From a virus (Duplodnaviria; Heunggongvirae; Uroviricota; Caudoviricetes): a stretch of 64,000 bases of DNA. The translations under genes and the position numbers were made by a program. The number at the start of each line of letters is the position of its first letter. Within the stretch, counting starts at the first letter, position 1. Shown here one piece after another: positions 5,907-39,760 of the stretch. The notes under the pieces were generated by a model that was not told the DNA's origin, ran no database searches, and saw nothing but the letters and a program-made list of their open reading frames with translations. Location: IMG/VR virus record IMGVR_UViG_3300032315_000486, one strand, 5' to 3'.

Positions 5907-5982
5907 GGGGTATTAGTGATAAAAGGTAGCACATCACACTTGCAATGTGAAAGAAACGGGGCGGTACCGTTATACTCCACCA
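5907..5982 (+). tRNA. tRNA-Ala-like (anticodon TGC) with G3:U70 but non-canonical T-loop
   Basis: acceptor ggggtat/atactcc gives G3:U70; anticodon stem tcaca/tgtga loop cttgcaa; T-stem aacgg/ccgtt but T-loop GGCGGTA; CCA encoded; only Ala decoder in the set. Confidence 0.45.
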
Positions 5983-6614: not shown

Positions 6615-7475
6615 GTGTTTGTAGTGAGACTATATTTGACACTAACTAAACAACACGTAGAACAAATGCTGCACGGCAATCCAGACATAGACGAGTGGTT
6701 CTCGGCTATGTCTTTATTATTTCCAAAGTATGGAATAAATGCGCCTGCACGAATAGCTGGATTTGTAGCCCAATGCGGGCACGAATCCCAAAACTTCAAA
6801 ACCTTAGAAGAAAATCTTAACTACTCAGCCGAAGGCCTAAATAAGATATTTCCTAAGTACTTCATAAAAGCTGGAAGAGACGCTCAAGCGTATCACAGAC
6901 AACCAGAAAAGATTGCAAACGTAGTGTACGCTAGCCGTATGGGTAATGGCGACACTGCAAGCGGCGAAGGCTGGAAGTTTAGAGGTCGTGGAGTTATCCA
7001 GCTAACTGGAAAAGATAATTACTCTAGATTTGCTAAGCACATAGGTAAATCACTAGACGAAACCATCGAGTATCTAAAAACAAAACAAGGCGCACTAGAA
7101 AGTGCTTGCTGGTTCTGGGAAACTAACGGGCTAAATGCAATAGCGGATAGTGGTGACATTGTTGCTATGACAAAGCGCATCAATGGTGGAACTATAGGTC
7201 TAGAGGATAGACAAAAGCACTACACACACGCACTAGCAGTTTTAGGCGGAAAAGCTCACGCAGTTAACGATCAGATAACTGATTCAGTAACTCAAACCTT
7301 GAAAAAAGGCGCCAATGGCTCTGCCGTAGCTAAAATGCAAAAAGCTTTAGGAATAAAAGCAGACGGTGACTTTGGTCCTGGCACTGAAACAGCACTTAAA
7401 AAATGGCAAACTGCTAATGGATTAACTGCTGATGGCGTAGCTGGCCCAAAAACTCTTGCTAAGTTGTTAGGATAA
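6615..7475 (+). CDS. endolysin: GH19 (chitinase-like) catalytic domain + C-terminal peptidoglycan-binding domain
   Basis: FVAQCGHESQNF...NLNYS and GRGVIQLTGKDNY typical of GH19 lysozymes; C-terminus KMQKALGIKADGDFGPGTETALKKWQTANGLTADGVAGPKT is a PG_binding_1 repeat. Confidence 0.75.
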   Translation: MFVVRLYLTLTKQHVEQMLHGNPDIDEWFSAMSLLFPKYGINAPARIAGFVAQCGHESQNFKTLEENLNYSAEGLNKIFPKYFIKAGRDAQAYHRQPEKIANVVYASRMGNGDTASGEGWKFRGRGVIQLTGKDNYSRFAKHIGKSLDETIEYLKTKQGALESACWFWETNGLNAIADSGDIVAMTKRINGGTIGLEDRQKHYTHALAVLGGKAHAVNDQITDSVTQTLKKGANGSAVAKMQKALGIKADGDFGPGTETALKKWQTANGLTADGVAGPKTLAKLLG

Positions 7476-12195: not shown

Positions 12196-12270
12196 ATTTG
12201 TAAGCTCGCTGGTAGAGCATTTGACTTCTAATCAAACTGAGCCGTTCGATTCGGCACAAAACCCCTGATT
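12196..12270 (+). pseudogene. degenerate tRNA-Arg(TCT)-like element
   Basis: D-arm agctcgctggtagagca, anticodon stem tttga/tcaaa loop cttctaa, T-arm gccgttcgattcggc (4 bp), but acceptor stem does not pair and CCA absent. Confidence 0.35.
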
Positions 12271-14582: not shown

Positions 14583-14658
14583 GGTTCTATAGCACTACGG
14601 TAGTGCAGCCGTGCCCTAACACGGTCGGAAGCAGGTTCAATTCCTGTTAGGACCACCA
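14583..14658 (+). tRNA. tRNA with non-canonical anticodon arm (8-nt or 6-nt loop; candidate anticodon CCT or CTA)
   Basis: acceptor ggttcta/taggacc, D gcac-tacggta-gtgc, T-arm gcaggttcaattcctgt, CCA; anticodon region gccgtgccctaacacggt folds only as 5-bp stem + 8-nt loop or 6-bp stem + 6-nt loop. Confidence 0.55.
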
Positions 14659-14841
14659 TAATCACCCACCTCTCGGCGATGTGGCGCCAGAGCTAGGCAA
14701 GGGGACGGATATAGGCATAGATAAAACCGCTCCACCAAATAAACTATAACATCAGGAGATACACTTTGTAGATTACTAAACCACCTTAGCCTTGATTAAT
14801 GCTTAAAGATAACGTATTTTAACATAATCAAGGAGATAAAA

Positions 14842-15309
14842 ATGTCTGTAGAACTAAAAATTAAATCTAAACATCTTAGCGTAGAAGCTCAAATCATTCG
14901 TTTTGAAGAACAAAAGCTACTCAAACAGTATCAGTGGTCCCTAGACAAATACACTAAAGCAGGAAACAACGATATGTATCCTCGTTGGAAAGATACCGCT
15001 TTTATGAGTTATTGCTCACTGAACAATCACCGTCGTTGGGACGTTCGTAATGAAAACCGTGCAACATTTCTAGCACGAGCTTACATTTCTGGTGTGCCGT
15101 ACAATTCAGTTGAGAAAAAACGCAAACCAGAAAACGAGCTTAAGTTTAAAACTTATATCTTTCCTCGTGTAGTAGCAATGGCTGCTAAGTATGGTAAAAT
15201 AAAAGTACCGTTAAAGATTTATGACAGAACAAAAGGTGGTTACGTAGATAATCCTGCACTTGCTAGGATTGCTAAAGACGTAACTCAATGGATTGAGACT
15301 ACTGCGTAA
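14842..15309 (+). CDS. hypothetical protein (155 aa)
   Basis: ORF with aaggagataaaaATG RBS. Confidence 0.5.
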   Translation: MSVELKIKSKHLSVEAQIIRFEEQKLLKQYQWSLDKYTKAGNNDMYPRWKDTAFMSYCSLNNHRRWDVRNENRATFLARAYISGVPYNSVEKKRKPENELKFKTYIFPRVVAMAAKYGKIKVPLKIYDRTKGGYVDNPALARIAKDVTQWIETTA

Positions 15310-16535: not shown

Positions 16536-17135
16536 GTGATCCACGTTCAAGGCAAAATTCCTCGCACAGTGTATGTAGCGTTCAGCGGCGGAGTTGACAG
16601 TGTTGCTGTTGTAGATTTTCTACGCCGCAACCACACCGTAGTTCTAGCGCACATCAACCACGGAAATGAAATTTCCTCGGCGGAGCAGGCTTTTGTAGAG
16701 CAGTTTGCTGAGAATCGTCAACTCCCTTTGCTACTCAAGCAAGGCAACGCTGATAAGCCGGCCGATGAATCTTGGGAAGAACACTGGCGTAATGAGCGTT
16801 ACCGTTTCCTGCATACTATTAACGGCACAGTAATCACTTGCCATCACCTCGACGATTGTGTTGAGACTTGGTTGTGGAATATGTGTAACGGGCGTGACCA
16901 GACTATCGCCTATCGTAATGTTAATGTAATTCGTCCATTCCGTACCACAAGAAAATCTGAATTTGTTGACTGGTATCAACGCAAGCAGCTCGCGTGGTAT
17001 GAAGATCCTACCAATGCTAACCCACAATTCGCTGTTCGCAACTACATCCGTCACGTGATGGTTCCTGCTGCAATGAAGGTTAACCCCGGCATTCACACTA
17101 CAATTCGCAATAAGCTGTTGCAAGAAAAAATTTAA
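16536..17135 (+). CDS. tilS: tRNA(Ile)-lysidine synthetase-like PP-loop ATPase (short TilS-like)
   Basis: GTG start with aaaggagataaatc RBS; PP-loop VAFSGGVDSVAV; CHHLDDCVETWLWNMCNG....IRPF matches the TilS motif HLDDQAET..LRLLRG....IRPLL. Confidence 0.65.
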   Translation: MIHVQGKIPRTVYVAFSGGVDSVAVVDFLRRNHTVVLAHINHGNEISSAEQAFVEQFAENRQLPLLLKQGNADKPADESWEEHWRNERYRFLHTINGTVITCHHLDDCVETWLWNMCNGRDQTIAYRNVNVIRPFRTTRKSEFVDWYQRKQLAWYEDPTNANPQFAVRNYIRHVMVPAAMKVNPGIHTTIRNKLLQEKI

Positions 17136-20035: not shown

Positions 20036-20305
20036 ATGCCTTTAGTTTTAAACGCTCGTAAAAGCGGTATGTTAGTTGACAACAGTGTGTATGTAGGTAG
20101 ACCTTCTGAGTTTGGCAATCCTTTTAAAGTAGGAGTTGACGGTAACAAAGTAGAGGTCATCGAAAAATACGAACAACATGTTCGTTCAAATGCAGAACTG
20201 CTAGCACTAGTCAAGGCAGAGTTGAGAGGGAAGCATCTAATTTGTTGGTGTGCCCCCGATTTTTGCCACGCGGACGTATTGCTTAAAATTGCTAATGAGG
20301 AATAA
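20036..20305 (+). CDS. DUF4326-family protein
   Basis: C-terminal KHLICWCAPDFCHADVLL motif typical of DUF4326; the 19961 start in the ORF track overlaps tRNA-Glu, so the ATG at 20036 is preferred. Confidence 0.5.
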   Translation: MPLVLNARKSGMLVDNSVYVGRPSEFGNPFKVGVDGNKVEVIEKYEQHVRSNAELLALVKAELRGKHLICWCAPDFCHADVLLKIANEE

Positions 20306-20306
20306 A

Positions 20307-20843
20307 ATGGATTATAACAAATATATACTCCCTGTTAAATATCTAGTATTCCTTGATATTGATGGGGTTTTTACTTCGGCCCGTGTGCAGTACGCAAGTG
20401 CTAATCCACACGACTTATGGAATAAGTTCGACCCTATTGCTATTGAGTTTATGAATAGGATTCATGATCGAGTTGACGGTGTTTACTTCATGCTGATCTC
20501 TACCTGGAAAGACCACCTAGTTACGGATGATGTAATGCTAGAGTATTGGATTACGTCCAGTTTTAGAAATGCAGGTTTCCGTGGAGAATTTAATCGTCCT
20601 TGGAAGACTAACCATCAGAACATCTATAATAACAGAGAAACTCGTGCTCACGAGATTAGAGACTTCATCAAGGGCAGAGATTTAAAAGACTATATCATCT
20701 TTGACGATTCTGACTATGAGTTTGATAAAATTCTAGGTAAGCGTCGCCACATTAAAACTGACAGTGAGAATGGCTTACTGTTTAAACACATGAGAAATGC
20801 TATGAGCATCATCGGAGAATGGGAGCCAAAAAATGGAACCTGA
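20307..20843 (+). CDS. HAD-superfamily hydrolase-like protein
   Basis: motif I LVFLDIDGVF (DxDG) near N-terminus; later STWKD and FDDSDYEF acidic motif. Confidence 0.45.
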   Translation: MDYNKYILPVKYLVFLDIDGVFTSARVQYASANPHDLWNKFDPIAIEFMNRIHDRVDGVYFMLISTWKDHLVTDDVMLEYWITSSFRNAGFRGEFNRPWKTNHQNIYNNRETRAHEIRDFIKGRDLKDYIIFDDSDYEFDKILGKRRHIKTDSENGLLFKHMRNAMSIIGEWEPKNGT

Positions 20844-22356: not shown

Positions 22357-23778
22357 ATGAACACTTTTGCTAACGCAGTCCTAAATGACAGCATCACTCC
22401 TCGTACCGCTAATGGTATGCGTGCACACGCTACCACTTCTAGTGCAGTACTCGATCTATTCGGTATGATCGGCTCGGCTCGTGGCAAAGATGTGTCACAG
22501 CATTTCATGGCTGCTATCGGCGAGAACGAAGAACTTGCCGTTCGCACTCTGCTTTGGGCTCGTGACATCCGTGGAGGTGCTGGTGAGCGCCAGACATTCC
22601 GTAATCTGCTAGCTGCCTTAGAGCGCGCTAATGCTTCTCTTGCTGGCCGTATCATGCACAAAGTTCCAGAGCTTGGTCGCTGGGACGACTTGTTCACTTA
22701 CGCTGAACACTTCAACCGTACTGCTGCTATGGAGATGATTCGTCAAGCCCTTGCGGACAATAATGGTCTGTGTGCAAAGTGGATGCCTCGTAAGGGTCCA
22801 GTTGCTGTTGAGTTGACTCGGTTCCTTGGCCTATCGCCTAAAGCTTATCGTAAGCTGATAGTTGGCCTGACTCAGGTTGTTGAAACTCAAATGTGTGCTA
22901 AGACTTGGACTGAGATTAATTTCTCACACGTTCCTAGCGTTGCTAGCGCTCGCTACCAGAAGGCATTTGGTCGTAACGCCTCCGAAGCGTATACTCGTTA
23001 TATTCAGGAGCTTCAGAAGCCGCAGGCTGAGCGTGATCCTAAGGTCAAAATCAACGCAAGTGCAGTTTACCCACATGACGTTGTAAAAAGCGTCGCTAAT
23101 GGTAATGCTGCTGTAGCCAACGAACAGTGGAATGCTCTTCCAAACTACGTTGGCGATGCAATGGTATTCCCCATGGTTGACGTTTCTGGTTCGATGGGTA
23201 GCCTAGCATACTCTCGTCCTGGCCACGTTCAGCCAATCGAAGTTGCCGTTGCTCTGGGTCTATACCTTAGTGCCAAGAACTCCGGTCCTTTCAAAGACCT
23301 GTTCCAGACTTTCTCTGGTCGTCCGACTATGGTAAAGCTGACTGGTTCTTTGAGTGATCGTATTCGTACCATGAGCACTGCTCATTGGGAAATGAATACT
23401 AATCTGCACGCTGCTTTTGATCAGATTCTGCAAGTTGCTGTAAACGGTAACGCAGATCCTGCAGATATGCCTCAGATTCTTCTGATCCTTAGCGATATGC
23501 AGTTTGACCGTTGCACTCGCTATGACGACAGTGCGCTGCAGATGATTGCTCGCAAGTACGAGCAGGCTGGATATGCGATGCCAAAGATCGTGTTCTGGAA
23601 TCTGAACTCTGGCTACGGTAACGTACCTGTTCAGTTCGATAGTCGCGGTACTGCACACGTCTCTGGTTTTAGCCCAGCAATCATGAATAGCGTTCTGGCA
23701 AACGATCTTGAAGACTTCACGCCTTACAATGTAATGCTGAAGACTCTGATGGACGATCGCTATGCTTTCGCTGCATGA
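22357..23778 (+). CDS. Ro60/Rsr-like TROVE + vWA (MIDAS) domain protein (DUF2828-like)
   Basis: N-terminal LDLFGMIGSARGKD and LLWARDIRGGAGERQTFRNLL resemble TROVE motifs (FLCFGSEGG.., LLYARDERG.G.G.R..FR); MIDAS DVSGSMG plus downstream LILSDMQFD. Confidence 0.5.
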   Translation: MNTFANAVLNDSITPRTANGMRAHATTSSAVLDLFGMIGSARGKDVSQHFMAAIGENEELAVRTLLWARDIRGGAGERQTFRNLLAALERANASLAGRIMHKVPELGRWDDLFTYAEHFNRTAAMEMIRQALADNNGLCAKWMPRKGPVAVELTRFLGLSPKAYRKLIVGLTQVVETQMCAKTWTEINFSHVPSVASARYQKAFGRNASEAYTRYIQELQKPQAERDPKVKINASAVYPHDVVKSVANGNAAVANEQWNALPNYVGDAMVFPMVDVSGSMGSLAYSRPGHVQPIEVAVALGLYLSAKNSGPFKDLFQTFSGRPTMVKLTGSLSDRIRTMSTAHWEMNTNLHAAFDQILQVAVNGNADPADMPQILLILSDMQFDRCTRYDDSALQMIARKYEQAGYAMPKIVFWNLNSGYGNVPVQFDSRGTAHVSGFSPAIMNSVLANDLEDFTPYNVMLKTLMDDRYAFAA

Positions 23779-25946: not shown

Positions 25947-27020
25947 ATGCGTGATGCACTAGTATTTATCGGTCGGTTCCAGCCGTTTCACAATGGACAC
26001 AAAGCAGTTATTGATGCTGCACTTGAGCAAGCTAAAGAGGTAGTTGTAGTAGTCGGCTCTAGCTTTGCTGCTCGAAATATACGAAATCCATTTACGTTCC
26101 AAGAACGCAAGGCTATGATTGAAGTCTGTTTCAACAAACCACAGCACTTTGCTTATGAGGGTGCTCAAGGTCGAGTGAAGACGTCTCGCGTAAAAGTTGT
26201 TCCAGTCTCTGACTTCCCGTATGACGACAATAAATGGGTCAATGCAATTCAACGTATTGTTGATGTGACTGTTCCTGATGCACAAGATGTTGGTCTGATT
26301 GGTCACTCAAAAGACAGCACTAGTTACTACCTGAACATCTTCCCTCGCTGGAAGAACCATATTGAAGTTGATGATGTTGGTGGTATTAATGCTACTGACA
26401 TTCGTAAGCTGATGTTTGAAGGTAACGACGCTGGTACAAGCTCGCACTTTATTTCTACAATGATGCCTAAAGAAGCTCACGGAAAGATGTGTGACGTTAT
26501 CAATCAGAATGCCAAGATCGGCGGTGCATGGGACACTATTTGCAAAGAATACCAAATGGTACGAAAATACAAAGAAGCGTGGAAGGCCGCTCCGTTCCCT
26601 CCTACTTTCATGACTGTTGACGCTGTTGTTATTCAAAGCGGTCATATTCTTCTTGTAAAGCGTGGCGACATGCCTGGCAAAGGTCAATGGGCACTGCCAG
26701 GTGGTTTCTTGAACCAAGACGAAACTATGCTTGACGGGGCTATTCGTGAACTGAAAGAAGAAACCAAGATCAAAGTTCCTGCTCCGGTTTTGAAAGGTTC
26801 TATCAAAGCTTCCAAGACTTTTGACGCTCCTAACCGTTCTACTCGTGGCCGTACTATCACTCAAGCATTCTTGATTGACCTTGGTGTTGGCGAGCTTCCA
26901 AAGGTTAAAGGTTCTGATGATGCTGAAAAAGCATTCTGGGTTCCTTTCAAGGATGTGAAGCAAGAGAAGATGTTTGAAGACCACTTCCACATCATCGACA
27001 ACTTTATCAACATTGGATAA
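25947..27020 (+). CDS. natV: bifunctional NMN adenylyltransferase / Nudix ADP-ribose pyrophosphatase (NatV-type)
   Basis: N-terminal FIGRFQPFHNGH (nucleotidyltransferase HxGH); C-terminal Nudix box GGFLNQDETMLDGAIRELKEETKI. Confidence 0.8.
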   Translation: MRDALVFIGRFQPFHNGHKAVIDAALEQAKEVVVVVGSSFAARNIRNPFTFQERKAMIEVCFNKPQHFAYEGAQGRVKTSRVKVVPVSDFPYDDNKWVNAIQRIVDVTVPDAQDVGLIGHSKDSTSYYLNIFPRWKNHIEVDDVGGINATDIRKLMFEGNDAGTSSHFISTMMPKEAHGKMCDVINQNAKIGGAWDTICKEYQMVRKYKEAWKAAPFPPTFMTVDAVVIQSGHILLVKRGDMPGKGQWALPGGFLNQDETMLDGAIRELKEETKIKVPAPVLKGSIKASKTFDAPNRSTRGRTITQAFLIDLGVGELPKVKGSDDAEKAFWVPFKDVKQEKMFEDHFHIIDNFINIG

Positions 27021-27247: not shown

Positions 27248-28678
27248 ATGAAAACAGTACTACATCTTATCTCAGCTATCCTTCGTACCGATAGCTACAA
27301 ATTTTCTCAGTGGGTTCAGTATCCAGCAGGTACTACTCACATTTCTTCGTACATTGAAAGCCGCGGTGGCGAAGATGAGAGTGTGTTCTTTGGTCTGCAA
27401 GCGTTTATGAAAGACTATATGACCACGCCTATCACAATGGCGGACGTAGATCGTGCAGAACGTATTGTTCTAGCACACGGTCTACCTTTCAACCGCGAAG
27501 GTTGGGAAATTATCGTAAACGAATATAACGGTATGTTGCCAGTGCTGGTAGAAGCAGTACCAGAAGGTACGGTTATGCCAACCCATAACGTACAGGTTCA
27601 GGTAGTTAATACAGACCCGCGCCTGTGGTGGTTGACTTCGTACTTGGAAACAGCTATGCTTCGTGGTGTGTGGTATCCTTCTACTGTGGCGACGAAGTCG
27701 CGCAAGATGAAGAAAATCATCAAGCGTGCTCTTGAAGAAACATCTGACGTTTCAGTAGAAGCTCAGATCAATTTCAAGCTCCATGACTTTGGTGCTCGTG
27801 GCGCATCGTCTAGTGAAACTGCGATGCTCGGCGGCATGGCTCACCTAGTAAACTTTATGGGTACTGATACTGCCGAAGCTCTTGTAGGTGTTATGGAATA
27901 CTACAACACTGATGAGGTTGTTGGGTTTAGCATCCCAGCTAGTGAACATAGCACTATCACTTCTTGGGGTCGTGCACATGAAACTGATGCTTATGACAAC
28001 ATGATCGACCAGTTCGCAGGTGAAGGCAAGCTGTATGCTTGCGTATCTGATAGCTTCGACATCTATCACGCAGCTGGCCATCTATGGGGTGAAGTTCTTC
28101 GTGAGAAGATAATCAATTCAGGCGGCACCTTGGTGGTACGTCCTGATAGTGGTGATCCCGAAACTGTACCTGTAGAGATTGTCAAAATCCTTGCTAGCAA
28201 GTTTGGAACTACTACAAACTCGAAAGGGTTTAAGGTTCTGCACCCAAGCGTTAGAGTTATTCAAGGCGATGGTATCAACGAACACTCGCTACCTAAGATT
28301 CTAGAAAATCTGAAAACGGCAGGGTTCTCGGCAGAAAACATCACATTCGGTATGGGCGGCGGGTTGCTACAAGCTTGGAACCGTGATACTCTCAAGTATG
28401 CAATGAAGGCATCAGCTATTCGTGTTAATGAGAGTGATTGGGTTGGATTCTCAAAAGACCCAGTAACTGATCACGGTAAGCGTTCTAAAGAAGGCCGTAT
28501 TGCTCTAGTCAAAGAAGCTGGATTTGGTATTGCTCCATACATCCGCACCGTTCCAGCAGACTATTTCTGGGAGCGTCCAAGCGCAGAAAACCTGTTGCAG
28601 CCCGTGTTCATGAACGGCGTTATACTCGTTGAAGATACGTTTGAAAACATTCGTGAACGTGCAAAGGAAGGTGTGTGA
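27248..28678 (+). CDS. nadV: nicotinamide phosphoribosyltransferase (NadV-type NAMPT)
   Basis: 476 aa; TDSYKFSQW, HDFGARG, GTD....EHST blocks characteristic of NAMPT/NadV. Confidence 0.85.
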   Translation: MKTVLHLISAILRTDSYKFSQWVQYPAGTTHISSYIESRGGEDESVFFGLQAFMKDYMTTPITMADVDRAERIVLAHGLPFNREGWEIIVNEYNGMLPVLVEAVPEGTVMPTHNVQVQVVNTDPRLWWLTSYLETAMLRGVWYPSTVATKSRKMKKIIKRALEETSDVSVEAQINFKLHDFGARGASSSETAMLGGMAHLVNFMGTDTAEALVGVMEYYNTDEVVGFSIPASEHSTITSWGRAHETDAYDNMIDQFAGEGKLYACVSDSFDIYHAAGHLWGEVLREKIINSGGTLVVRPDSGDPETVPVEIVKILASKFGTTTNSKGFKVLHPSVRVIQGDGINEHSLPKILENLKTAGFSAENITFGMGGGLLQAWNRDTLKYAMKASAIRVNESDWVGFSKDPVTDHGKRSKEGRIALVKEAGFGIAPYIRTVPADYFWERPSAENLLQPVFMNGVILVEDTFENIRERAKEGV

Positions 28679-38810: not shown

Positions 38811-39437
38811 ATGACTTATGAAGAATACATACTATCTAATGTAATAGATAAAAAAGTAGATAATTATGAGCTTCTGATAGAGGCTATGCTACAAACATCT
38901 GTGGCACCTAGTACTTACCTAGAAAATAAATTAACTAAACAAAAAGTTAGTGTTGGACTCACGAAAATCTTCGGAGAGAAGGCACACAAAGACAAGAATA
39001 CATCTTTTAATTTTTATTTTCTAAAACAGTACAGGGAAGAAATTTTAGGAATAGAAGAAGACACAATAAAGACATGCTCTGCTTGCAACAGAGAGTTACC
39101 AATAACGGAGTTTTACTCTAATGGGTATCAACCTAGTGGTAAGAAAAAGTATAAATCAAAATGCAAAAACTGCCAAATAGTGCAAAACGATTCTAGAAAA
39201 GAAGATATAATATTAAAAGTAGTCGGGTCTTACTCATGTAATATATGTGGGTATAGTAAATGTAAACAGGCTCTAGAGTTTCACCATGTGGACCCGCAGA
39301 TTAAAGAATACAAAATATCTGATCTAAGTACGCATAAAGAAGATATTATAGTACTAGAGTTAGAAAAGTGTATTTTAGTATGTGCCAACTGCCATAGAGA
39401 AATACACTATGGATTGCATCCAGAATATATAATTTAA
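38811..39437 (+). CDS. HNH homing-type endonuclease (very AT-rich, free-standing)
   Basis: CSAC..(n)..CKNC zinc ribbon, then CNICGYSK....EFHHVDPQIK.....LVCANCHREIH (HNH core); ~300-nt ORF-free flanks on both sides. Confidence 0.7.
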   Translation: MTYEEYILSNVIDKKVDNYELLIEAMLQTSVAPSTYLENKLTKQKVSVGLTKIFGEKAHKDKNTSFNFYFLKQYREEILGIEEDTIKTCSACNRELPITEFYSNGYQPSGKKKYKSKCKNCQIVQNDSRKEDIILKVVGSYSCNICGYSKCKQALEFHHVDPQIKEYKISDLSTHKEDIIVLELEKCILVCANCHREIHYGLHPEYII

Positions 39438-39760
39438 GTGCTCCGTTTGTAGCAAGTTGTGAAGATGGAATGGACACGGCTCTCGGATGCCGTTACCTCC
39501 ACCAACCATATTAATTATGGGGGTAAAAGGGATCGACATACGTTGTAGCAATGCGTGAGGAGCCAGTGAGCAAGCGACTGTAACCGCAAGAAAATCAATA
39601 AGTGCAAATGAAAATTCAGCACCTGTTAAATTAGCTCTAGTAGCTTAATTTAAGTGGGTATGGGTTCCACCTAGAAACAGAACGGGCCCACCTTATAAAC
39701 TTATCAGACAAAGTAATATTAATATTGCTTAGATCGGATAGTGTATGCTATATTAAGGAT

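What the first reader, a model, noticed from the sequence alone, without database searches (positions are those of the whole stretch)
14583..14658. tRNA with an anticodon arm that cannot form a canonical 5-bp stem/7-nt loop (possible CCU or CUA anticodon)
Acceptor, D-, T-arms and CCA are normal. The 23-nt stretch gccgtgccctaacacggtcggaa folds either as a 5-bp stem + 8-nt loop (gccctaac) or a 6-bp stem + 6-nt loop (ccctaa). An 8-nt loop is the hallmark of +1 frameshift suppressor tRNAs. A CUA reading would make it an amber suppressor. It could otherwise be a tRNA-Arg(CCU) with an insertion.
Basis: seen in the sequence. Interest (0 to 1): 0.6.

Follow-up and report, generated by a model that had tools for sequence, protein, structure and literature searches.

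The report
Phage amber-suppressor-type tRNA with odd loop
This is a real phage tRNA gene from a conserved family whose anticodon (CUA) reads the UAG stop codon, but this phage's copy has an extra base in the anticodon loop of a kind known to make tRNAs shift the reading frame. What it does here is unproven, because no gene that needs it was found.

Summary
Window 14583-14658 (+) is a well-folded 76-nt tRNA gene with an encoded CCA. Its anticodon arm can only form a 5-bp stem with an 8-nt loop (GCCCUAAC), or a 6-bp stem with a 6-nt loop (CCCUAA).

It is not a sequencing error. A second metagenome contig, about 95% identical over 3.4 kb, carries the same 76 bases.

Seven other phage lineages carry an orthologous tRNA at the same place, just upstream of the same 155-aa ORF. 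All seven have a canonical 7-nt loop, C(U/C)CUAAA, with anticodon CUA. Their stems co-vary: 10 of 21 pairs show compensatory changes.

By descent, then, the anticodon is CUA (amber-suppressor type), not CCU. The window lineage alone gained a G between positions 31 and 32, plus U33C and A38C. This geometry matches the SufJ +1 frameshift suppressor, and the loop resembles lab-evolved UAGN decoders.

I found no in-frame TAG and no TAG-linked +1 junction in the 64-kb window or in fragments of relatives, including some late genes. TAG ends only about 4% of called genes.

The function is unproven. It could be an altered UAG reader or +1 shifter, or an inactivated relic. Verdict: a new variant of a known kind, of moderate interest.

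The parts
14583..14658 (+). Whole tRNA gene (76 nt), with encoded A73 and CCA
   Evidence: ARAGORN; Rfam RF00005 at 45.9 bits; cloverleaf MFE; family covariation
14608..14625 (+). Anticodon arm: 5' strand GCCGT (14608-14612), inserted G31.5 (14613), loop CCCTAAC (14614-20), 3' strand ACGGT (14621-14625)
   Evidence: Read from the sequence; aligned to 7 orthologous lineages. G14613 and C14620 can pair, which gives the 6-bp/6-nt alternative
14616..14618 (+). CTA, the anticodon by homology (reads UAG); it is followed by A37 (14619) and C38 (14620)
   Evidence: The C, T, A, A columns are invariant in all 8 lineages. The seven canonical orthologues are called anticodon cta by ARAGORN or read directly from sequence (L002)
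14613..14613 (+). Lineage-specific extra G between positions 31 and 32 (31.5)
   Evidence: This alignment column is a gap in every other lineage
14842..15309 (+). ORF155, the conserved downstream neighbour of the tRNA(CUA) in all 8 lineages; function unknown
   Evidence: Synteny; 865 homologues; no Pfam, PHROG or PDB match

Best explanation
SHOWN. The locus is a real, structurally intact tRNA gene. It is the local member of a conserved family of phage-encoded tRNA(CUA) genes (amber-suppressor type). These sit in the tRNA clusters of distant T5-like phages, always just upstream of the ORF155 homologue. The ancestral loop was C-U-CUA-A-A. On the branch leading to this phage and its 95%-identical relative, three changes hit the loop: a G inserted between 31 and 32, U33 to C, and A38 to C. 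Over the same period the D stem and anticodon stem were kept paired by compensatory changes.

INFERRED. The 3' side of the loop is unchanged in register (CUA, then A37, then position 38, then stem), so the anticodon presented is still CUA. The new G31.5 pairs with C38. This is the geometry of the Salmonella frameshift suppressor SufJ, where C31.5 pairs with A38 and nucleotides 34-37 stay in the canonical position. The loop form NNN-CUA-A-C also resembles lab-evolved UAGN decoders.

The most likely working model is a tRNA that still recognises UAG in the A site but with altered behaviour. It would be a much weaker in-frame suppressor and/or would promote a +1 shift at UAG-N. It is expressed from the early tRNA cluster of a phage in which TAG is a rare stop codon. 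The amino acid it carries is unknown. By analogy with E. coli amber suppressors bearing A73 and U35, Lys or Gln is plausible; this comes from my recollection of the literature, not from a test.
For: - Real gene. An independent contig has the identical 76 nt against 4.6% divergence over 3.4 kb.
- Family: orthologues in L001, L002, L003/L005, L008, L058, L059/L060 and L062-L064 share the acceptor stem and ACCA, and most share the T arm. All have 7-nt loops with CUA. The C32, C34, U35, A36 and A37 columns are invariant.
- Covariation on 8 distinct sequences: 95.2% of cells are paired, 10 of 21 pairs have changes on both sides, 0 of 500 shuffles reach this, and slid controls pair only 32-44%.
- Window-specific compensatory pairs: D stem GCAC/GTGC against GCCT/AGGC in the closest relatives; anticodon stem GCCGT/ACGGT against ACTGC/GCAGA.
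- SufJ precedent: a 31.5 insertion that pairs with 38, decodes in the zero frame, and causes a +1 shift (PMC4238358).
- UAGN decoding needs an 8-nt loop. Selected variants carry A37 with C38 or U38, and they read plain UAG about 20-fold worse (PMC4764823).
- TAG ends only 5 of 126 crudely called genes in the window.
Against: - No target was found. There are no TAG-split genes on the coding strand, no TAG(G) followed by a long +1 ORF beyond background, and no homology-supported in-frame TAG or frameshift in 64 kb.
- Relatives that carry the canonical tRNA also look standard-code, including 4.2 kb of late genes on the same 175-kb contig.
- Three changes in an otherwise invariant loop on one short branch is also what loss of constraint would look like.
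- U33, needed for the U-turn, is C. A14 is U. The Rfam score (45.9 bits) is the lowest of the family members scored (L001 67.8, L008 62.8, L003 47.0).
- Zero differences from L006 is weak evidence of constraint, because local divergence around the gene is only about 1-2%.
- Late genes of this phage itself were not available.
Confidence: 0.55

Rival explanations
1. Inactivated relic. This lineage no longer needs, or was harmed by, amber suppression. The loop was disabled by the insertion together with U33C and A38C. The RNA still folds but no longer decodes.
For: - There are three changes in a loop that is otherwise invariant across 7 lineages.
- C33 and U14 depart from near-universal tRNA nucleotides.
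- The Rfam score is the lowest of the family members scored.
- No UAG targets were found in the window.
- The same tRNA cluster holds other degenerate tRNA-like genes, at 12197-12260 and 5907-5979.
- 8-nt-loop CUA tRNAs read UAG about 20-fold worse.
Against: - All four stems are perfect, and were kept so by window-specific compensatory changes.
- The inserted G and the A38C change complement each other, which looks coordinated rather than random.
- The gene is identical in a phage that is 4.6% diverged overall.
- C33 also occurs in L008, within an otherwise canonical and high-scoring member (62.8 bits).
Confidence: 0.27
2. The loop was remodelled to escape a host anticodon nuclease, or the RNA acts as a decoy. 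Under this reading, the changes were selected for resistance to tRNA-cleaving defences rather than for new decoding.
For: - Phage tRNAs are proposed to evade anticodon nucleases through loop mutations (PMC10264068).
- The cluster carries RNA-repair-type genes: HAD_SAK_2 at 20250-20843, DUF7788/DUF2828 at 22357-23778, and a PP-loop enzyme at 16536-17135.
Against: No nuclease that targets CUA tRNAs is known to me, and a host would have no such tRNA to target. Nothing in the window ties this particular tRNA to a defence system. The idea is not testable with these tools.
Confidence: 0.08
3. tRNA reading AGG (anticodon CCU). With a true 6-bp stem and a 6-nt loop C-CCU-A-A, counting back from the 3' side gives CCU. 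That would make it an Arg-like tRNA lacking position 32.
For: - The 6-bp/6-nt fold is the thermodynamic optimum.
- The acceptor stem and ACCA are identical to tRNA-Arg(CCU) genes of some phages and alphaproteobacteria.
- The closest paralogue in the window by global alignment is tRNA-Arg(UCU).
- The window has no tRNA-Arg(CCU).
Against: - Every orthologue has CUA in a canonical loop.
- By alignment, the inserted base is on the 5' side, so the 3' register is unchanged.
- The ArgRS identity elements are missing: A20 is U, and C35 would have to be newly created (E. coli identity rules, recalled from the literature).
- The same acceptor stem also occurs in Val, Met and Ile tRNAs, so it is not diagnostic.
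- AGG is the rarest Arg codon in the window, at 3.3 per 1000.
Confidence: 0.06
4. Sequencing or assembly error that created a spurious extra base.
For: None beyond the prior plausibility of single-base indels.
Against: The 76 nt are identical in an independent JGI metagenome contig whose flanks differ. The difference from the relatives is three changes, not one.
Confidence: 0.01

Closest known systems
Phage-encoded amber suppressor tRNAs (tRNA-Sup CUA) of stop-codon-recoded phages such as crAss-like, Lak and related clades (Borges et al. preprint, 10.1101/2021.08.26.457843)
   Same: It is a phage-borne tRNA with a CUA anticodon, encoded among standard-code early genes, in a genome where TAG is a rare stop. 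That paper also reports suppressor tRNAs in standard-code relatives, as a possible step before recoding.
   Different: No in-frame TAG was found in the window or in fragments of relatives. No RF2 or aaRS gene was seen among the larger ORFs scanned. The phage group is different: distant T5-like, probably environmental with an alphaproteobacterial host. This copy has a non-canonical loop.
Salmonella +1 frameshift suppressor tRNA SufJ (tRNA-Thr with a C31.5 insertion; PMC4238358)
   Same: There is an extra nucleotide between 31 and 32, giving an 8-nt loop. The extra base can pair with position 38 and encloses six nucleotides (32, 33, 34-36, 37).
   Different: SufJ is a laboratory-selected mutant of a sense-codon tRNA with U33 intact and a C31.5/A38 pair. 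Here the gene is natural, the anticodon reads a stop codon, position 33 is C, and the new pair is a Watson-Crick G-C. Frameshifting is untested.
Laboratory-evolved UAGN quadruplet decoders derived from tRNA-Pyl(CUA) (PMC4764823)
   Same: Both have an 8-nt loop of the form NNN-CUA-A-N38, with position 38 changed from A to C or U.
   Different: The evolved tRNAs converged on U33 and U33.5 directly 5' of CUA. The window has G-C-C there. By alignment, its extra base sits next to the stem, not next to the anticodon.
Yeast mitochondrial tRNA-Thr1(UAG) with an 8-nt anticodon loop (PMC3113583), and the other natural non-standard-loop tRNAs listed by Atkins et al. 2016 (PMC5009743)
   Same: These are natural tRNAs with enlarged anticodon loops. 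The review notes such tRNAs 'in a phage' and says none is known to mediate frameshifting.
   Different: Those read sense codons as triplets. This one derives from a stop-codon reader.

Membership tests
tRNA (Rfam RF00005, cloverleaf) | Covariance-model score above the gathering threshold | tested here: met
   45.9 bits against 29, E = 2.5e-8. The hit was missed by the whole-window gathering run because of the filters.
tRNA (Rfam RF00005, cloverleaf) | 7/4/5/5-bp stems supported by compensatory changes among homologues | tested here: met
   95.2% of cells paired, 10 of 21 pairs with both-side changes, 0 of 500 shuffles reach this.
tRNA (Rfam RF00005, cloverleaf) | 7-nt anticodon loop with U33 and a purine at 37 | tested here: not met
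   The loop is 8 nt (or 6 nt with an extra G-C pair). Position 33 is C. A37 is present.
tRNA (Rfam RF00005, cloverleaf) | Conserved tertiary nucleotides (U8-A14, R15-Y48, G18 G19, T54 Psi55 C56) | tested here: inconclusive
   G18 G19 and TTCAATT are present. Position 14 is U and the 15/48 pair is A/A.
Phage tRNA(CUA) family upstream of ORF155 (defined here) | Sequence homology across the acceptor stem, T arm and ACCA | tested here: met
   The acceptor stem and ACCA are identical to L001, L058, L059, L063 and L008; the T arm is identical to L001 and L003/L005. The family profile HMM gives 76 bits.
Phage tRNA(CUA) family upstream of ORF155 (defined here) | Position directly upstream of the ORF155 homologue | tested here: met
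   The window tRNA ends 183 nt before ORF155. The same order holds in L001 (with a PTOX gene inserted), L002, L003, L005, L008, L058, L059, L060 and L062-L064.
Phage tRNA(CUA) family upstream of ORF155 (defined here) | Loop C-(U/C)-CUA-A-A of 7 nt | tested here: not met
   CUA and A37 are kept, but the window has an extra G and C38.
Amber suppressor tRNA (functional class) | Anticodon complementary to UAG presented at positions 34-36 | tested here: inconclusive
   CUA is present and homologous. The register in a 6/8-nt loop cannot be settled from sequence.
Amber suppressor tRNA (functional class) | Inserts an amino acid at UAG in vivo | not testable with these tools
   Needs reporter assays or mass spectrometry.
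+1 frameshift suppressor tRNA, SufJ type | Extra nucleotide between 31 and 32 that enlarges the loop to 8 nt and can pair with position 38 | tested here: met
   The alignment places the extra G at 31.5. The G-C pair is predicted. For the SufJ description.
+1 frameshift suppressor tRNA, SufJ type | Causes a +1 shift at its cognate codon | not testable with these tools
   Needs frameshift reporters.
+1 frameshift suppressor tRNA, SufJ type | Genes that require a +1 shift at the cognate site (UAG-N) | tested here: not met
   Among TAG-ended ORFs, +1 continuation is no more frequent than for TAA or TGA. No homology-supported frameshift junction was found. Only the 64-kb window was tested.
tRNA-Arg(CCU) | CCU at 34-36 in a canonical loop, with the ArgRS identity elements A20 and C35 | tested here: not met
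   Position 20 is U. CCU is in register only if a 6-bp stem is assumed. All orthologues are CUA. The shared acceptor stem is not specific to Arg.
Stop-codon-recoded phage (TAG as sense, code 15) | Many genes, especially late and lysis genes, interrupted by in-frame TAG | tested here: not met
   Window: no TAG-split genes on the coding strand, and the endolysin is intact. Relatives' late genes are intact: L045, L050, L067. This phage's own late genes were not available.
tRNA pseudogene | Loss of fold or of conservation | tested here: inconclusive
   The fold is intact and compensated. Only the loop departs from the family. The identity to L006 is not statistically decisive.

The most novel reading that the evidence does not exclude
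A natural, phage-encoded SufJ-like tRNA(CUA) that turns UAG-N into a programmed +1 frameshift or quadruplet codon, or gives a tunable read-through. It would act on one or a few genes outside this window, for example late genes. That would make it the first natural stop-codon-directed frameshift tRNA used by a virus.
Probability: 0.12. Interest if true: 0.85.

Novelty: new variant of a known kind. Interest (0 to 1): 0.5.

Why it matters
Natural tRNAs with non-standard anticodon loops are very rare, and none has been shown to cause frameshifting (PMC5009743). Here the canonical and enlarged-loop forms are natural orthologues in closely related phages. That gives a ready-made pair for asking what a 31.5 insertion does to a stop-codon reader.

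The family-level result is a separate puzzle. A tRNA(CUA) with an invariant loop and co-varying stems is kept by at least 8 lineages of T5-like phages that otherwise look standard-code, and it is always next to an uncharacterised 155-aa protein. This bears on how stop-codon recoding begins in phages, namely the proposed stage of a rare stop codon plus an acquired suppressor.

Tried and rejected
- Cultured-phage matches. Megablast and blastn of the locus and of the tRNA against INPHARED gave nothing beyond generic tRNA similarity. No cultured relative is available. The ligase is only about 32% identical to that of T5-like phages.
- First pattern scan. An exact-flank pattern with a variable loop found nothing in IMG/VR. 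The 186-aa upstream protein found no relatives.
- TAG recoding. I compared ORF length under TAG, TGA or TAA read-through. I also looked for same-frame ORF pairs split by one stop and measured read-through extension lengths. Finally I looked for homology-supported in-frame stops and frameshifts, in both directions. All were negative or indistinguishable from the TAA and TGA controls. A cross-comparison of late-gene loci was swamped by off-frame conservation and was discarded.
- Reaching this phage's own late genes. Look-ups of window-end proteins returned only a 5-kb Logan contig. I therefore used relatives.
- Isotype of origin. Global alignments to all tRNAs in hand were inconclusive, because they were biased by the acceptor-stem pattern used to fetch those tRNAs.
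- ORF155 function. Pfam, PHROGs and a PDB profile search gave no hit. The AlphaFold2 model is confident (pLDDT 88.8). It has no informative PDB fold match (best E = 0.44) and matches only uncharacterised phage proteins in BFVD.
- Downstream spacer and signals. Folding 14655-14845 gave nothing significant (z = -1.25). The promoter and terminator scan was at background.

Full report
**1. What is there**

Window 14583-14658 (+) reads GGTTCTA-TA-GCAC-TACGGTA-GTGC-A-GCCGT-G-CCCTAAC-ACGGT-CGGAA-GCAGG-TTCAATT-CCTGT-TAGGACC-A-CCA.

It is one of 27 tRNA genes that ARAGORN finds between 4.3 and 21.7 kb, all on the + strand. It is the only one reported as 'tRNA-??? anticodon (ct)', meaning a 6-nt loop. 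The Rfam tRNA model scores it 45.9 bits (gathering score 29, E = 2.5e-8) and places 8 nt where the model has 7. RNAfold returns the cloverleaf with a 6-bp anticodon stem and the 6-nt loop CCCUAA. The energy is -28.9 kcal/mol, z = -3.5, and no shuffle of 200 folds as well.

Two minor deviations went unnoticed: U14, and an A15/A48 pair.

**2. Not an artefact**

JGI contig Ga0247723_1000580 (L006) comes from another metagenome. It is 95.4% identical to the window over 3.4 kb, with 142 mismatches and 10 gaps, and it carries the identical 76 nt. Neighbouring tRNAs behave alike between the two phages. Cys and Val are identical, and Met has four changes, including a compensatory pair.

Local divergence around the gene is low. 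The identity is therefore consistent with purifying selection but does not prove it.

**3. Genomic setting**

No cultured phage is close. Several features mark a distant T5-like phage:

- an NAD-dependent ligase about 32% identical to those of T5-like phages;
- T5 A2-like, T5 dNMPase and T5 small-terminase families in the flanking DNA or in relatives;
- a large tRNA cluster interleaved with small ORFs.

The window matches ENA scaffold KRAE22-1_SAMEA4981854_METAG-scaffold_127 (89,980 bp) wherever the two could be compared.

**4. Orthologues settle the anticodon**

Searches used the downstream ORF, tRNA patterns and a family HMM. They recovered orthologous tRNAs in seven other lineages:

| Lineage | Loop |
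|---|---|
| L058 (neighbour ORF 78% identical) | CUCUAAA |
| L059 = L060 (76%) | CUCUAAA |
| L001 (75%) | CUCUAAA |
| L062 = L063 = L064 (69%; NCBI contig JACCDQ010113532.1, 175 kb) | CUCUAAA |
| L002 (missed by ARAGORN because of a C54 T-loop) | CUCUAAA |
| L003 = L005 | CUCUAAA |
| L008 | CCCUAAA |

Every one has a 75-76-nt cloverleaf with a 7-nt loop and anticodon CUA. Every one lies directly upstream of the ORF155 homologue.

Across the 8 distinct sequences, 95.2% of pair cells are standard pairs and 10 of 21 pairs show changes on both sides. No shuffle of 500 reaches these values, and slid controls pair only 32-44%. The loop columns C32, C34, U35, A36 and A37 never vary while the stems do. 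This is a functional tRNA family in which the CUA loop is the constrained part.

**5. What changed in this lineage**

Compared with its nearest relatives, the window copy has three changes:

- an extra G between 31 and 32;
- C in place of U33, a state it shares only with the distant L008;
- C in place of A38.

The rest of the molecule was maintained. Its D stem is GCAC/GTGC, against GCCT/AGGC in the closest relatives. Its anticodon stem is GCCGT/ACGGT, against ACTGC/GCAGA. Both differ through compensatory pairs. The inserted G and the new C38 are complementary to each other, and that is what produces the 6-bp/6-nt alternative fold.

No lineage intermediate between about 99% and 78% neighbour-ORF identity exists in the databases searched. 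The odd loop is so far confined to one species-level lineage, seen in two independent metagenomes.

**6. How it probably works (inference)**

By alignment the insertion is on the 5' side, so the 3' side of the loop keeps its register: CUA, A37, position 38, stem. The triplet presented should therefore still be CUA.

This matches the SufJ frameshift suppressor. There, C31.5 pairs with A38, residues 34-37 superimpose on a normal anticodon stem-loop, decoding in the A site is in the zero frame, and the distorted stem promotes a +1 shift later (PMC4238358).

Directed evolution of UAGN decoders showed three relevant things (PMC4764823). An eighth loop nucleotide is required. Selected variants change A38 to C or U. 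Such tRNAs read plain UAG about 20-fold worse.

An enlarged loop does not guarantee frameshifting, however. The yeast mitochondrial tRNA-Thr1 reads triplets. The Atkins review notes that no natural odd-loop tRNA is known to frameshift.

My best model is a UAG-recognising tRNA with weakened in-frame suppression and/or +1 activity at UAG-N. The alternative CCU (Arg) register would need a true 6-bp stem. Descent argues against it, as do the absence of A20 and the rarity of AGG at 3.3 per 1000 codons.

**7. Search for targets**

On the coding strands of the window there is no pair of ORFs of 70 aa or more split by a single TAG. TAG-ended ORFs are not followed by long +1 ORFs more often than TAA- or TGA-ended ones. 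A crude gene call gives stop codons TAA 73, TGA 48 and TAG 5, with ordinary read-through extensions. Comparison with 19 loci from relatives shows no in-frame stop or frameshift on the coding strand that survives a frame check. The GH19 endolysin at 6615-7475 is intact.

Relatives with the canonical tRNA also show no recoding in their tRNA regions. Late genes in relatives are intact under the standard code:

- L045, whose late block includes a gene called at 1136 aa;
- L050;
- L067, whose 4.2 kb of late genes has 0 internal TAG and lies on the same 175-kb contig as a canonical CUA tRNA.

This phage's own late genes could not be fetched. The group thus looks like standard-code phages with rare TAG stops that carry a suppressor-type tRNA. 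Borges et al. describe that state as a possible precursor of recoding.

**8. Rivals**

- **Inactivated relic (0.27).** This fits the burst of loop changes, C33 and U14, the low model score, and the other degenerate tRNA-like genes in the cluster. It fits less well with the compensated stems and the complementary G31.5/C38 pair.
- **Nuclease evasion or decoy (0.08).** This is suggested only by context: RNA-repair-type genes in the cluster and the published hypothesis.
- **CCU/Arg reading (0.06)** and **sequencing error (0.01)** are unlikely for the reasons given above.

**9. Comparison and novelty**

The closest known things are the following:

- phage amber-suppressor tRNAs, which belong to the same functional class but differ in loop and genomic context;
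- SufJ, which has the same insertion site but was selected in the laboratory and reads a sense codon;
- lab-evolved UAGN decoders, which have the same loop size and 3' half;
- natural 8-nt-loop triplet readers.

I rate it a new variant of a known kind. Interest is moderate at 0.5. The natural canonical/variant pair and the unexplained conservation of tRNA(CUA) plus ORF155 are worth an experiment, but no function is shown.

**10. Side observations**

These are listed separately: a permuted alpha-type tmRNA, two tRNA-like genes that ARAGORN missed, a TilS-like PP-loop protein, RNA-repair domains, NAD-salvage genes, and the orphan fold of ORF155.

Noticed in passing
window 39404-39692 (+): Permuted (two-piece) tmRNA: Rfam tmRNA_permuted 81.7 bits at 39440-39648, and alpha_tmRNA 59.9 bits. 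A tag reading frame GCA AAT GAA AAT TCA GCA CCT GTT AAA TTA GCT CTA GTA GCT TAA (ANENSAPVKLALVA) is visible. ARAGORN did not report it. It suggests an alphaproteobacterial host. A phage tmRNA alongside a suppressor-type tRNA is a notable pairing.
   Followed up: partly
window 5907-5979 (+): tRNA-like gene missed by ARAGORN (Rfam 40.9 bits). Its anticodon loop CUUGCAA gives UGC (Ala), and it has G3-U70. Its T-loop is aberrant (GGCGGUA). It is probably the 'missing' tRNA-Ala of the set.
   Followed up: partly
window 12197-12260 (+): Degenerate tRNA-Arg(UCU)-like element (Rfam 37.8 bits, model positions 3-68). It has a 4-bp T stem, a weak acceptor stem and no CCA.
   Followed up: partly
window 14842-15309 (+), and L001, L002, L003, L005, L008, L058-L064: ORF155 always follows the tRNA(CUA). 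It has 865 homologues at E <= 1e-10 and the conserved motif HRKWDVRNENRATFLARAY. The AlphaFold2 model is confident (pLDDT 88.8): long helices plus a beta-hairpin. It has no informative PDB fold match and no Pfam or PHROG family.
   Followed up: yes
window 16536-17135 (+): PP-loop ATPase (PF01171, 106 bits), the family of tRNA(Ile)-lysidine synthase TilS. It lies inside the tRNA cluster, which has three CAT-anticodon tRNAs. Homologues are present in relatives.
   Followed up: no
window 20250-20843 (+) and 22357-23778 (+): A HAD_SAK_2 domain ('Swiss Army Knife' RNA-repair proteins) and a DUF7788/DUF2828 protein lie within and next to the tRNA cluster. They may form an RNA-repair or counter-defence module.
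   Followed up: no
window 25947-27020 (+) and 27248-28678 (+): NAD-salvage genes: a cytidylyltransferase-like plus Nudix (NadR-like) protein, and a nicotinamide phosphoribosyltransferase.
   Followed up: no
L001 2305-2908; L002 2650-2762: In L001, an alternative-oxidase/PTOX-like ORF is inserted between the tRNA(CUA) and ORF155 (my reading of the translation; not scanned against any family library). L002 keeps only a C-terminal remnant of it. The window has none.
   Followed up: no
window start; L041, L042: Three independent assemblies all end about 1.14 kb upstream of the ligase gene. This may be a physical genome end or a repeat boundary.
   Followed up: no
L067 4400-5000: In a relative, a tandemly repeated non-coding block of roughly 70-nt units containing GCGTTATACACAGAGTGTATTAGGGGG lies between the late genes and the pre-early genes.
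   Followed up: no
window 14740-14800; L001 2905-2965; L002 2915-2955: A conserved intergenic motif (TGTAGATYAYTAARCCACC) lies upstream of ORF155 in three lineages. It may be a promoter or operator.
   Followed up: no
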